Source: a phage | DNA: 64,000 nt | NCBI GenBank assembly: GCA_014685065.1 | Contig: GCA_014685065.1_4092.2 | Direction: 5' to 3' (one strand) | In this document: positions 26,673 to 27,852 of the stretch, piece by piece | How the letters are laid out: each line of letters opens with the position of its first letter | Numbering within the stretch: position 1 is the first letter of the stretch | Made by a program: the position numbers and the translations under genes | The notes under the pieces: generated by a model | What the model was told of the DNA's origin: nothing | The model's input: only the letters and a program-made list of their open reading frames with translations | Databases searched by the model: none

Positions 26673-27852
26673 TTAAATTTGTGGCAATTGGTATTCAGTT
26701 AAAGTCCATGTACCAACAACTGTCCCTACTGGAGACATACCAGTGTAGTATAATTTCCCATTCACATATGCAAATAATGCATTGTCATTCGCAGCAACCA
26801 ACGATGTTGACGGATCATAAACTACAGAATTTGGAAATTGTGCTTGGACGAAAATTGAAGCATTATTAGATGAATTGTTACCAAGCTGTCCATAATTATT
26901 ATACCCTGTTCCAAAAATACGACTTCCATTTCTATATAATAATCCCCTAGGATTTTGTGAATATGTTTGTATAAATTCAAAATCGGAAACATTAGTTAAT
27001 TGTAAATAAGTACTTTGTGGCGTTAAAGATATCTTATTAGTATTAGATAGAACACCATTTCCTAATTGTCCGTGAATTTTGTGACCCTACACCATATAGC
27101 GGATAAGTATTATCTACATTAAGAACTATACCCAACATATTGTTATATGAAATTATATCAACGGGGTACTGTCCTGTAGGAAAACTATACTTTGTCCAAA
27201 TCGTCAACGTATCAGTAGCAGAACCAGTTAACAATGTACCAGTACTAGTTTTACCACATCGCCATACTGAATTATCATTTTTAATTATCCAAGTCGGACT
27301 ATTGAAAAATGAACTAACCTTTTTAACATTAATATTAACCTGTGTAAATGATGTAAGTGTAGATGAACTACTACCCAACTCATAGGTCGAATTATCACCT
27401 ATTGCGTAAAGAACACTATCATTTGTTAGTAAAAACATATTACGAACATTTGGATATATCTCCTTGATATTATCCACATTAAAACCTGAAAAATAAGACG
27501 TACAATCAACAAATGTAGTACTTTGAACTGCACTAGATGTACCAGTCCAAAGGTTCCAACCTGCATAATAAAATTTATTATCATTGGTCTGAACTAAGCT
27601 ATATGAAGCATTCCTTGTGCACCAAAAATTTTTCACATTTTGCATTAAGCGAACCCATTTGGTCTGTGTCGTTGTATTTCCAAGACCGAATATACCAGCA
27701 TTGTTACCGCCAATACCCCACAAATCACCGTTCTTATACAGAATCATCAATGTGTTGTTGGTAAAAGCTGATGGTGCTTGCATTTTAATCACACTAGATT
27801 CATATACAGGTGCTATATTCCCGTACTTAACCATTCTAGAAAAAGGTAACAT
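26673..27852 (-). pseudogene. RCC1-like MLPF-leader paralog interrupted by an apparent 1-nt frameshift
   Basis: frame A ends ...PLYGVGSQNSRTIRKWCSI at 27043; frame B continues (G)QLGNGVLSN...LYYTGMSPVGT... to stop 26673-26675; shift maps to about 27050-27085. Confidence 0.55.

What the first reader, a model, noticed from the sequence alone, without database searches (positions are those of the whole stretch)
26673..27852. Frameshifted paralog inside the propeller cassette
The gene starting at 27852 stops at 27043 in frame, but the adjacent frame continues with perfectly good RCC1-like sequence (...GQLGNGVLSN...FGTGYNNYGQLGNNSS...LYYTGMSPVGT...) to a stop at 26673-26675, directly followed by the RBS of the next gene. 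The shift maps to about 27050-27085, near short A/T homopolymers. It could be a sequencing error, a recent inactivation, or a programmed frameshift.
Basis: seen in the sequence. Interest (0 to 1): 0.5.

Follow-up and report, generated by a model that had tools for sequence, protein, structure and literature searches.

The report
Conserved +1 frameshift in phage propeller gene
One of about ten duplicated virion "propeller" genes of an E. coli jumbo phage carries an extra base that splits it into two reading frames, yet the second part is still kept intact by selection in many independent isolates, so ribosomes probably skip one base to make the full protein rather than the gene being dead or mis-sequenced.

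Summary
The window is an Asteriusvirus (121Q/G17-like) E. coli jumbo phage. The 269-codon ORF 27852-27043(-) stops, and the +1 frame runs open from 27086 to 26673.

It is not a sequencing error. The identical 1180-nt split allele occurs in 10 GenBank phages and 3 independent read-set assemblies. A second lineage about 17% diverged (WPEC3, Turkey5, one read-set assembly) has one extra base in the same 6-nt patch. One relative (vB_Ec-M-J) and a 63%-identical homolog are intact.

It does not look dead:
- There is no other indel.
- dN/dS of the downstream part in the +1 frame is about 0.2, the same as upstream.
- Of 13 polymorphisms inside the shifted lineages, 12 are synonymous third positions of the +1 frame (P about 2e-5).
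- The upstream product was detected in phAPEC6 virions.
- The truncated product would lack blades 6-7 of a seven-bladed RCC1-like propeller.

Best explanation (about 0.55): translational +1 recoding. The likeliest site is UCA/GUG_CGG_A. CGG is the phage's rarest codon, and the overlapping GGA is served by a phage tRNA-Gly. No slippery motif, RNA structure or homopolymer is conserved, and nothing has been shown experimentally.

Main rival (about 0.25): a tolerated truncation.

The parts
27856..27863 (-). Shine-Dalgarno AAGGAGGG of the split gene
   Evidence: Read directly from the sequence. It lies 3 nt upstream of ATG 27852.
27043..27852 (-). Frame-0 ORF of 269 codons plus TAA. It encodes the N-terminal MLPFSRMVKYGN anchor motif, propeller blades 1-4 and three strands of blade 5, then a 9-residue out-of-frame tail RTIRKWCSI.
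   Evidence: Pfam RCC1-like domain PF25390, E = 6e-13, below the family's gathering score. The phAPEC6 ortholog gp007 (30.06 kDa) was detected in virions with 3 unique peptides.
26673..27086 (-). +1-frame open stretch of 137 codons plus TAA. It encodes the GQLGNG motif, the last strand of blade 5 and blades 6-7. There is no ATG/GTG/TTG until codon 96.
   Evidence: Pfam RCC1 repeat PF00415 scores 26.6 bits, above the 21.7 cut-off. dN/dS is 0.19-0.21 in this frame against 0.9-2.1 in the other two. 12 of 13 within-lineage variants are synonymous third positions.
27046..27086 (-). Overlap window in which the change of frame must occur in this lineage. In the WPEC3/Turkey5 lineage the homologous window is only 18 nt: GTA GTG CGG ACA ATT AGG.
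27072..27078 (-). Patch AATTCAC holding the extra base. It aligns with the 6-nt TTTTAC of the intact ortholog. It corresponds to the two variable loop residues before GQLG.
27069..27075 (-). Proposed shift site UCA_CGG_A. The frame-0 CGG (27072-27070) overlaps the +1-frame GGA (27071-27069), which encodes the conserved Gly of GQLG.
   Evidence: The C-GGA-CAA-TTA-GG string is identical in both shifted lineages. CGG is the rarest sense codon: 9/10331 in window ORFs, 0/3405 in the cassette, 1/13238 in the Sharanji core region. The phage encodes tRNA-Gly(UCC) and tRNA-Ser(UGA) but no tRNA for CGG. The choice of site is an inference and has not been shown.
27061..27063 (-). Second rare frame-0 arginine codon AGG. 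It is followed directly by the frame-0 stop in the WPEC3/Turkey5 lineage. This is an alternative or back-up shift site.
26669..26675 (-). Stop TAA of the +1 ORF, overlapping the AAGGAG ribosome-binding site of the next paralog (ATG 26662). This is the same junction layout as between the intact paralogs.

Best explanation
The gene is a live member of the cassette of RCC1-like seven-bladed beta-propeller virion proteins of an Asteriusvirus jumbo phage. Its DNA really carries one extra base in the loop codons before a GQLG motif. The full-length protein of about 392 aa is made because a fraction of ribosomes move +1 within 27086-27046.

The most likely site is UCA_CGG_A (GUG_CGG_A in the sister lineage). 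There the A-site codon CGG is the rarest codon of the phage and is read only by a minor host tRNA. The overlapping GGA codon is read by a phage-encoded tRNA-Gly(UCC). An incoming Gly-tRNA would then bind out of frame without P-site slippage, as proposed for yeast Ty3 and for glass-sponge mitochondria. Ribosomes that do not shift make a 269-aa fragment that cannot close the propeller.

Shown:
- the indel is real and widespread;
- the downstream +1 frame is under purifying selection;
- the upstream product is in virions;
- CGG is rare and the tRNA genes are present.

Inferred:
- that the correction is translational;
- the exact shift site;
- the hungry-codon mechanism;
- any regulatory purpose, such as low stoichiometry or late-infection timing.
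For: (1) The indel is real. Ten GenBank genomes and three read-set assemblies carry the identical 1180-nt allele. A lineage about 17% diverged carries +1 nt in the same patch.

(2) No intact allele of either shifted type was found among 5.8 billion protein clusters, against 31 distinct truncated variants.

(3) There is no other indel across 17% divergence.

(4) dN/dS downstream in the +1 frame is 0.19-0.21, equal to upstream (0.19-0.22). Wrong-frame controls give 0.9-2.1.

(5) Within the shifted lineages, 12 of 13 downstream variable sites are +1-frame third positions and synonymous, and the thirteenth is I/V. P = 1.7e-5. Nine private singletons are all third positions, P = 5e-5. Seven of the 13 sites lie upstream of the first canonical start codon of the window-lineage +1 ORF.

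(6) A neutral simulation keeps the +1 ORF open in only 1-3% of trials after the observed 76 substitutions.

(7) phAPEC6 gp007, which is this ORF, was found in virions at peptide counts like those of its intact paralogs.

(8) The AlphaFold model of the intact 63%-identical homolog is a closed seven-bladed RCC1-like propeller (pTM 0.83; TM 0.75-0.8 to UVR8 over about 390 columns). The shift falls inside blade 5, and the N-terminal strand closes blade 7, so the truncated product lacks its closure.

(9) CGG_A/GGA is conserved in both shifted lineages. CGG is the rarest codon. The phage encodes tRNA-Gly(UCC).

[quoted passage not shown] Non-programmed frameshift suppression of about 1% without canonical motifs has been measured in E. 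coli (PMC10861913).
Against: - There is no experimental evidence for a trans-frame product. The phAPEC6 and JP4 proteomes were searched only against annotated ORFs.
- No P-site re-pairing is possible at UCA or GUG, and the P-site codon is not conserved between the lineages.
- There is no significant mRNA structure (z from +0.4 to -0.7), no Rfam element and no suitably spaced SD-like stimulator.
- Other in-frame CGG codons are not depleted for a following A (12/38), so CGG_A is not generally avoided.
- CGG in that register follows automatically from the protein sequence (xxC GGN), so its presence need not have been selected.
- The selection signal rests on only 13 sites. It could partly reflect variation imported by recombination from intact alleles or pre-dating the indel. 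The gene is visibly mosaic.
- Near the site, the intact vB_Ec-M-J allele is sister to the shifted WPEC3 allele. The history therefore needs either a reversion or two independent insertions.
Confidence: 0.55

Rival explanations
1. This is a genuine frameshift mutation that truncated one of many redundant paralogs. Only the 269-aa fragment is made, whether tolerated, useless or with a new role. The downstream ORF is a young remnant that has not yet decayed.
For: There are about ten paralogs in the cassette, so loss of one should be cheap. A clearly decayed paralog remnant lies 1.2 kb away at 25016-25487, so paralog death does occur here. No recoding signal is recognisable. Within the window lineage the downstream part shows very little variation (4 sites), which is compatible with a recent origin or sweep. 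With only 9 substitutions, a neutral ORF stays open in 51% of simulations.
Against: 12 of 13 within-lineage downstream variants are synonymous in the +1 frame, P = 1.7e-5. The second lineage has the extra base in the same 6-nt patch. That means either long persistence with dN/dS 0.2 and an ORF kept open (P 1-3% if neutral), or an improbable coincidence of about 7/1179 per event. The truncated propeller lacks blades 6-7 and its closure, yet the product is found in purified virions at levels like intact paralogs. No intact allele of the same type was sampled anywhere.
Confidence: 0.25
2. This is a split gene. The C-terminal 120-133 residues are translated as a separate polypeptide, by non-canonical initiation or by reinitiation after the frame-0 stop, and assemble non-covalently with the N-terminal fragment.
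For: It would explain the purifying selection downstream. AUU/AUA codons lie in the +1 frame shortly after the frame-0 stop in both lineages: ATA at codon 14 here and ATT at codon 7 in WPEC3. SD-like GGAG/AGGG strings arise from the Gly codons nearby. The phage encodes its own IF3.
Against: There is no ATG/GTG/TTG in the first 90 codons of the +1 ORF. The candidate non-canonical start codons are not at homologous positions in the two lineages. The GQLGNG codons upstream of them are conserved. Splitting a blade between its third and fourth strands is an unlikely assembly route.
Confidence: 0.07
3. The frame is restored before translation. Possible routes are transcriptional slippage at the A4 run, RNA editing, or a minority of in-frame genomes in the phage population (phase variation).
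For: The window lineage has CAAAAT at the patch, and the most economical mutational origin is A3 to A4.
Against: Four A residues are far below the run lengths known to support productive slippage (my own knowledge). The WPEC3/Turkey5 lineage has no homopolymer at all (GTAGTGCGGA), yet shows the same pattern of conservation. Thirteen independent assemblies all report the shifted length.
Confidence: 0.05
4. It is a sequencing or assembly error in this record.
For: None beyond the prior that homopolymer indels are common errors.
Against: The allele is identical in 10 GenBank genomes and 3 independent read-set assemblies. A diverged lineage carries it too.
Confidence: 0.01

Closest known systems
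+1 translational frameshifting in glass-sponge (Hexactinellida) mitochondrial genes at UGG_A / CGG_A (PMC2267718; PMC5009743)
   Same: A single extra base sits in an otherwise conserved coding sequence. The zero-frame codon at the site is the rarest codon of the genome (CGG or UGG). The overlapping +1 codon is GGA, encoding a conserved glycine. The P-site codon is not slippery. The case rests on conservation of the downstream frame.
   Different: That system is organellar, with a reduced tRNA set, and the rare codon is used almost only at shift sites. Here the host is E. coli, CGG is used about 30 times in the small-ORF region at 42-62 kb, and the preceding codon differs between lineages. Neither case has a biochemically proven mechanism.
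Yeast Ty3 GCG_AGU_U and Ty1 CUU_AGG_C +1 frameshift sites (hungry-codon mechanism; my own knowledge)
   Same: A slowly decoded A-site codon plus an available +1 cognate tRNA. For Ty3, there is no P-site slippage.
   Different: The Ty sites depend on particular P-site tRNAs and, for Ty3, on a downstream stimulator. No equivalent is identifiable here.
Listeria phages PSA/A118/A500 cps and tsh +1 programmed frameshifts, and E. coli prfB
   Same: +1 recoding in phage structural genes and in bacterial genes.
   Different: Those use slip-prone CCC or CUU followed by a stop codon or pseudoknot, and an SD-like stimulator in prfB. In the phages they add a C-terminal extension to give two functional products. 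Here the shift lies inside a propeller blade and only the shifted product can fold.
'Savior' or 'corrective' indels with low-level compensatory frameshifting (herpesvirus thymidine kinase; Atkins et al. 2016), and non-programmed frameshift suppression in E. coli at about 1% (PMC10861913)
   Same: A real indel, a useless non-shifted product, and enough full-length protein made by inefficient frameshifting at non-canonical sites.
   Different: Those are recent mutants or laboratory constructs. This allele is fixed in two diverged natural lineages and its downstream part is under selection.
RCC1-like seven-bladed beta-propellers (RCC1, UVR8, RPGR and HERC2 RLDs). Phage examples are GAP32 gp001 and 121Q gp234-248.
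   Same: The fold (TM 0.75-0.8 to UVR8), the GxNxxGQLG repeats and the Pfam RCC1 hits. These are virion proteins in GAP32 and phAPEC6.
   Different: They carry a phage-specific N-terminal MLPFxRMxKYGN peptide. There is no evidence of Ran-GEF or DNA-condensation activity, so the database name 'DNA condensation protein' is unsupported.

Membership tests
RCC1-like beta-propeller (Pfam PF00415 / PF25390) | Seven repeats of 50-60 aa with the GxNxxGQLG signature and Pfam matches | tested here: met
   The downstream part matches PF00415 at 26.6 bits, above the 21.7 cut-off. The upstream part matches PF25390 at E = 6e-13, though below the whole-domain gathering score of 150. The fused sequence aligns end to end with the 376-403-aa paralogs.
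RCC1-like beta-propeller (Pfam PF00415 / PF25390) | Closed seven-bladed fold | tested here: met
   AlphaFold model of the intact 63%-identical homolog P0001: pLDDT 81, pTM 0.83, 27 strands in 7 blades. Foldseek TM 0.75-0.80 to UVR8 and 0.64-0.77 to RCC1, RPGR and HERC2. The fused window protein itself could not be submitted.
Programmed +1 ribosomal frameshift, slippage type (prfB, PSA tsh/cps) | P-site codon whose tRNA can re-pair in the +1 frame (CUU_N, CCC_N), followed by a stop or slow codon | tested here: not met
   The P-site candidates UCA (window) and GUG (WPEC3) cannot re-pair at +1. No CCC, CUU or GGG codon lies in the 18-nt window common to both lineages.
Programmed +1 ribosomal frameshift, slippage type (prfB, PSA tsh/cps) | cis stimulator: SD-like element 3 nt upstream, or a downstream pseudoknot or stem-loop | tested here: not met
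   Folding z-scores are +0.40, +0.05, -0.73 and -0.47, no better than shuffles. Rfam gives nothing above noise. The AGGAG in WPEC3 lies 8 nt from the P-site codon, not 3.
Hungry-codon +1 frameshift without slippage (Ty3 / glass-sponge mitochondria type) | The zero-frame A-site codon is very rare or slowly decoded | tested here: met
   CGG is the rarest sense codon: 9/10331 in window ORFs, 0/3405 in the RCC1 cassette, 1/13238 in 45 kb of the Sharanji core. No phage tRNA reads it.
Hungry-codon +1 frameshift without slippage (Ty3 / glass-sponge mitochondria type) | The +1 codon is common, has an abundant cognate tRNA, and encodes a conserved residue | tested here: met
   GGA occurs at 18 per 1000 codons. 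A tRNA-Gly(UCC) gene is present in the phage. It encodes the Gly of GQLG, which is conserved in orthologs and paralogs. tRNA abundance itself was not measured.
Hungry-codon +1 frameshift without slippage (Ty3 / glass-sponge mitochondria type) | The downstream frame is conserved under selection in lineages that carry the indel | tested here: met
Hungry-codon +1 frameshift without slippage (Ty3 / glass-sponge mitochondria type) | A trans-frame protein is demonstrated, and its yield depends on the level of the rare tRNA | not testable with these tools
   Published virion proteomes list only annotated ORFs.
Pseudogene | Relaxed selection (dN/dS near 1) and further disabling mutations after the first lesion | tested here: not met
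   dN/dS is about 0.2. There are no stops or indels in 132 codons across 17% divergence. 12 of 13 polymorphisms are synonymous. This contrasts with the decayed remnant at 25016-25487.
Pseudogene | No product | tested here: not met
   phAPEC6 gp007 was detected in virions: 3 unique peptides, 17.5% coverage.
Transcriptional slippage / phase-variable homopolymer | A long A or T run (usually 7 or more) at the site, conserved among carriers | tested here: not met
   There is only an A4 run in the window lineage and none in WPEC3/Turkey5.
Translational bypassing (T4 gene 60 type) | Matched take-off and landing codons, a stop right after take-off, and a take-off hairpin | tested here: not met
   A CAA...CAA pair 13 nt apart exists in both lineages. 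However, no stop follows the first CAA, there is no hairpin, and the product would lose three residues of the motif.

The most novel reading that the evidence does not exclude
Asteriusvirus jumbo phages express a virion beta-propeller through an obligatory, evolutionarily maintained +1 ribosomal frameshift of the no-slippage, hungry-codon type (X_CGG_A read as X-GGA). This mechanism is so far documented only in yeast retrotransposons and animal mitochondria. The yield would be set by the balance between a scarce host tRNA-Arg(CCG) and a phage-encoded tRNA-Gly(UCC). The phage's own tRNA set and the state of host tRNAs late in infection would then control the stoichiometry or timing of one member of a paralogous surface-protein family.
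Probability: 0.3. Interest if true: 0.8.

Novelty: new variant of a known kind. Interest (0 to 1): 0.6.

Why it matters
If confirmed, this would be a natural +1 recoding event in an E. coli phage with no slippery codon. It would extend the Ty3/mitochondrial hungry-codon mechanism to bacterial ribosomes. It would also give phage-encoded tRNAs a role beyond matching codon usage.

It is directly testable in a tractable host, using a reporter, overexpression of argX (the tRNA-Arg(CCG) gene), and a re-search of existing virion mass-spectrometry data.

In practice, the two or three ORFs annotated at this locus in more than a dozen GenBank genomes are probably one gene. Some of those annotated ORFs are spurious calls in the wrong frame. 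Gene callers and pseudogene filters would wrongly discard it.

If the rival is right instead, the locus is an ordinary truncated paralog, and its only value is as an annotation correction.

Tried and rejected
- **IMG/VR.** A protein-pattern scan and a DNA-pattern scan returned only phage 121Q itself and one chance match, L014.
- **JGI metagenomes.** A degenerate DNA pattern spanning the site and a protein scan found nothing.
- **Complete E. coli RefSeq genomes.** No match.
- **More alleles from cluster members.** I used the window's own proteins instead.
- **Gene-conversion donor for the patch within the window.** None found.
- **RNA structure at or after the site in the three allele types.** Not better than shuffles. 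Rfam gave only a 14.6-bit noise hit.
- **Frameshift-suppressor tRNA with an odd anticodon loop.** The window has no tRNA genes. The Sharanji tRNA cluster holds six ordinary tRNAs.
- **Genome-wide avoidance of CGG_A.** Not seen, 12 of 38.
- **GGA specific to the shifted alleles.** No. The intact Logan homolog (P0001) also uses GGA, while vB_Ec-M-J uses GGT.
- **Direct proteomic evidence for the +1 ORF.**
  - The phAPEC6 paper has no supplement held, and its search database is not described.
  - The JP4 supplement lists 49 proteins and this gene is not among them.
  - The Sharanji paper does not mention the locus.
  - No paper in the held library links 121Q-like phages to a frameshift.
- **A clean tree to decide between one ancient insertion plus reversion and two insertions.** The gene is mosaic: 26/22/12 informative sites support the three possible groupings. 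The question stays open.
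Full report
**What the window is.** The region is 99.9% identical to Escherichia phages vB_EcoM_G17 and Sharanji and 97-99% identical to 121Q, UB, phAPEC6, SP27, JP4, SHEFM2K and ELP-22. These are jumbo myoviruses of the genus Asteriusvirus with genomes of about 350-370 kb. The finding lies in a minus-strand cassette of about ten paralogous genes (25493-37079). Their products all begin MLPF(G/A/S)RM(V/I/L)KYGN and hit the Pfam RCC1 / RCC1-like-domain models.

**Checking the observation.**
- The ORF from ATG 27852 ends at TAA 27045-27043 after 269 codons.
- The +1 frame is open from 27086, just after TAG 27089-27087, to TAA 26675-26673.
Its stop overlaps the ribosome-binding site of the next paralog.
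- The other two frames of the same stretch have 15 and 7 stops.
- Among all eleven +1 ORF-to-ORF transitions in the 64 kb, this is the only one whose second ORF lacks a start codon near its head. The first ATG/GTG/TTG is at codon 96.
- The fused sequence (392 aa) aligns end to end with the 376-403-aa paralogs. The junction falls in the conserved Y.xGxxxxGQLGNG motif.

**It is not an error.**
- Ten GenBank genomes from different laboratories and countries have exactly the same 1180-nt allele with the same local sequence.
- Three independent assemblies of public read sets have it as well.
- The 5.8-billion-cluster protein collection holds 20 distinct 269-aa variants and 11 distinct 264-aa variants of the truncated ORF. 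Many come from E. coli draft assemblies with contigs of about 350 kb. It holds no intact protein of either type.

**Relatives that matter.**
- Phage vB_Ec-M-J (82% nucleotide identity) has an intact 1179-nt gene reading ...GSQFYGQLGNG....
- The window has TCACAA|AATTCAC|GGACAA where vB_Ec-M-J has TCACAA|TTTTAC|GGTCAA. That is one extra base in a 6-7-nt patch (27078-27072) encoding the two variable loop residues before GQLG.
- A more distant intact homolog (P0001, 63% amino-acid identity) reads GSQGAGQLGNN.
- A second lineage (WPEC3, Turkey5 and one read-set assembly; 83% identity to the window) is also 1180 nt. Its extra base lies in the same patch, but the patch sequence is completely different: CAA GTA GTG C GGA CAA TTA GG TAA.
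- In that lineage the +1 frame opens only after a TAG inside the patch, and frame 0 ends at AGG TAA. The shift is therefore confined to 18 nt, and no homopolymer is present.

**Is the downstream part alive?**
- Across 17% divergence there is no other indel.
- Nei-Gojobori dN/dS for the downstream segment read in the +1 frame is 0.19-0.21 for all three lineage pairs. This equals the upstream segment (0.19-0.22). The two wrong frames give 0.9-2.1.
- Randomly placing the observed 76 substitutions keeps the +1 ORF open in only 1-3% of trials.
- These figures bear on the frameshifted state only if the indel is older than the split of the two shifted lineages. The cleaner test uses variation within each shifted lineage.
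  - There are 4 variable downstream sites in the window lineage and 9 in the other.
  - Twelve of the 13 are third positions of the +1 frame and synonymous there. The thirteenth is Ile/Val. All are non-synonymous in the other two frames.
  - P = 1.7e-5 for the position test and 3e-7 for the synonymous test.
  - Most are private singletons, so they are not obvious imports from known alleles.
  - Seven of the 13 lie upstream of the first canonical start codon of the window-lineage +1 ORF.
- The downstream part is, if anything, more constrained than the upstream part: 12:1 against 30:38 synonymous:non-synonymous, Fisher P = 0.002.
- By contrast, a truly dead paralog sits 1.2 kb away at 25016-25487. 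It is an MLPFRRI... start, a stop, and blade fragments in another frame, with most of the gene deleted.

**Expression and fold.**
- In the phAPEC6 virion proteome, gp007 was detected with 3 unique peptides and 17.5% coverage. gp007 is the 810-nt ORF, 30.06 kDa.
- That is in the same range as its intact paralogs gp003, 005, 006, 009 and 010 (PMC7247149).
- GAP32 gp001, a homolog, is also a virion protein (PMC5259590).
- The AlphaFold model of the intact homolog P0001 (pLDDT 81, pTM 0.83) is a closed seven-bladed propeller. It superposes on UVR8, RPGR, HERC2 and RCC1 over about 390 columns, with TM up to 0.8.
- Residues 1-18, the shared MLPF motif, are disordered. Strand 21-25 completes blade 7.
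- The frameshift falls between the third and fourth strands of blade 5.
- From the model, the 269-aa product would therefore lack two and a quarter blades and the closure. Its presence in purified virions is easier to understand if a full-length chain exists.

**How the frame is probably restored.**
- The only string shared by the two shifted lineages inside the permitted window is (N)NN CGG ACA ATT AGG, which is C-GGA-CAA-TTA-GG in the +1 frame.
- CGG is the rarest sense codon of the phage:
  - 9 of 10,331 codons in long window ORFs;
  - 0 of 3,405 in the cassette;
  - 1 of 13,238 in 45 kb of the Sharanji core genome.
- The phage encodes tRNAs for Gly(UCC, reads GGA), Ser(UGA), Asn, Arg(UCU), Ser(ACU), Met and Thr, but none for CGG. 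In E. coli, CGG is read by one minor tRNA (my own knowledge).
- A shift at X_CGG_A to X-GGA gives GSQNS-GQLGNG here and GAQVV-GQLGNG in the other lineage. These have the same length as GSQFY-GQLGNG in the intact gene, and they restore the invariant glycine.
[quoted passage not shown] 5' adjacent to a GGA codon' (PMC5009743; PMC2267718). It has been interpreted like the yeast Ty3 site.
- E. coli ribosomes also suppress frameshift mutations at about 1% at many non-canonical sites (PMC10861913).
- I therefore commit to a translational +1 shift, most likely at CGG_A. The rare AGG three codons later, and in the other lineage the adjacent stop, is a possible second chance.

**What speaks against it.**
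- No junction peptide or 43-kDa product has been reported.
- The P-site codon (UCA against GUG) is not conserved and cannot re-pair.
- There is no structure beyond chance, no Rfam element, no well-placed SD-like stimulator and no unusual tRNA.
- CGG_A is not avoided elsewhere: 12 of 38 in-frame CGG codons are followed by A. Almost all of these lie in the small-ORF region at 42-62 kb, which has different codon usage.
- The CGG arises automatically from the protein sequence (xxC-GGN), so its presence is not by itself evidence of design. It may simply be why an indel at this spot was survivable.
- 'Programmed' may thus be too strong. A tolerated indel kept leaky by a fortuitous hungry-codon site, which lowers the dose of one paralog, fits equally well.

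**History.**
- With P0001 as outgroup, informative sites support WPEC3 + vB_Ec-M-J (26), window + vB_Ec-M-J (22) and window + WPEC3 (12). The gene is mosaic.
- Within about 100 nt of the site, WPEC3 and the intact vB_Ec-M-J are clearly sisters: 11 sites, against 2 grouping the window lineage with vB_Ec-M-J and 1 grouping it with WPEC3.
- So either the indel is old and vB_Ec-M-J reverted, or two +1 insertions arose independently within the same 6 nt of a 1179-nt gene.
- The first scenario implies long survival of the shifted state under selection. The second implies that this spot is special. Neither fits a random inactivation.

**Rivals.**
- A tolerated truncation or young pseudogene remains possible (about 0.25). 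This would require the 13-site signal to reflect imported or pre-existing variation.
- Separate translation of the C-terminal piece (about 0.07) lacks a start codon at homologous positions.
- RNA- or DNA-level correction (about 0.05) lacks a homopolymer in one lineage.
- Sequencing error is excluded.

**Comparison with what is known, and novelty.**
- The protein is a member of the RCC1-like propeller superfamily by sequence and fold. The GenBank label 'DNA condensation protein' has no support.
- The recoding resembles the Ty3 / sponge-mitochondria type in four features that were tested and met. These are a rare A-site codon, a common +1 GGA with a cognate tRNA gene, a conserved downstream frame and no slippage.
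- It fails the defining features of prfB/PSA-type sites, of transcriptional slippage and of T4 gene 60 bypassing.
- No paper in the held library mentions a frameshift in these phages.
- I rate it a new variant of a known kind, interest 0.6. The comparative evidence is coherent and the experiment is easy, but nothing has been demonstrated at the protein level.

Noticed in passing
window 25016-25487 (- strand): This is a decayed paralog remnant downstream of the last intact cassette gene. A 66-codon ORF contains an internal MLPFRRIITSS...DGTLYSRGSQ start and then a stop. RCC1-like blade fragments (VYSTGYNTRQLGIGT..., IQIYSTGQNITDGG...) follow in another frame. Most of the gene is missing. It is called as a 66-aa gene in two Logan read-set assemblies (L019, L021).
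   Followed up: partly
window 25493-37079 (- strand), including 30260-30997: All cassette genes share the N-terminal peptide MLPF(G/A/S)RM(V/I/L)KYGN. This includes a 245-aa glycine-rich protein (30260-30997) that has no Pfam hit and is not a propeller. The peptide is predicted to be disordered in the model of the homolog. It looks like a common attachment or targeting tag for different virion surface modules.
   Followed up: partly
window about 42000-62000 (+ strand): This is a dense run of small ORFs (65-210 aa) with different codon usage. It holds about 30 of the 38 in-frame CGG codons found in 109 kb, whereas 45 kb of the Sharanji core genome has a single CGG. It may be an early-gene or recently acquired region.
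   Followed up: no
window 61467-63872 (+ strand): This is a tandem array of eleven ORFs of 66-90 aa each, most with overlapping stop/start. Ten of the eleven share a (L/V/I)GTN(Y/F)Q(E/Q)xY-like motif in the C-terminal half. It is a second, unrelated paralog family.
   Followed up: no
L008 (phage JP4), first about 200 nt of the ortholog: The 5' end of the JP4 allele (codons about 15-60) matches the intact vB_Ec-M-J allele rather than its own lineage. This shows short-tract recombination between alleles of this gene.
   Followed up: partly
window 34759-34850 (- strand): The 433-codon ORF 34850-33549 overlaps the end of the preceding paralog by 92 nt. The real start, the MLPF motif, is probably further downstream. 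It is not a second frameshift case, because a start codon lies at codon 3 of the open stretch.
   Followed up: partly
L018 (Sharanji 95-140 kb), outside the window: The phage encodes its own IF3 (infC) and a tRNA-specific adenosine deaminase, in addition to seven tRNAs. It is not known whether these affect start-codon choice or decoding of rare codons late in infection.
   Followed up: no
GenBank records for this locus (L003, L004, L008, L009, L010, L012): The annotations of this locus disagree. Some records call a 42-aa ORF, which is the tail of the real +1 frame. Others call a 56-aa ORF (171 nt) or, in phAPEC6, a 108-nt ORF, both in the wrong frame. SHEFM2K extends the first ORF upstream into the preceding gene. 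None annotates a frameshift or a pseudogene.
   Followed up: yes
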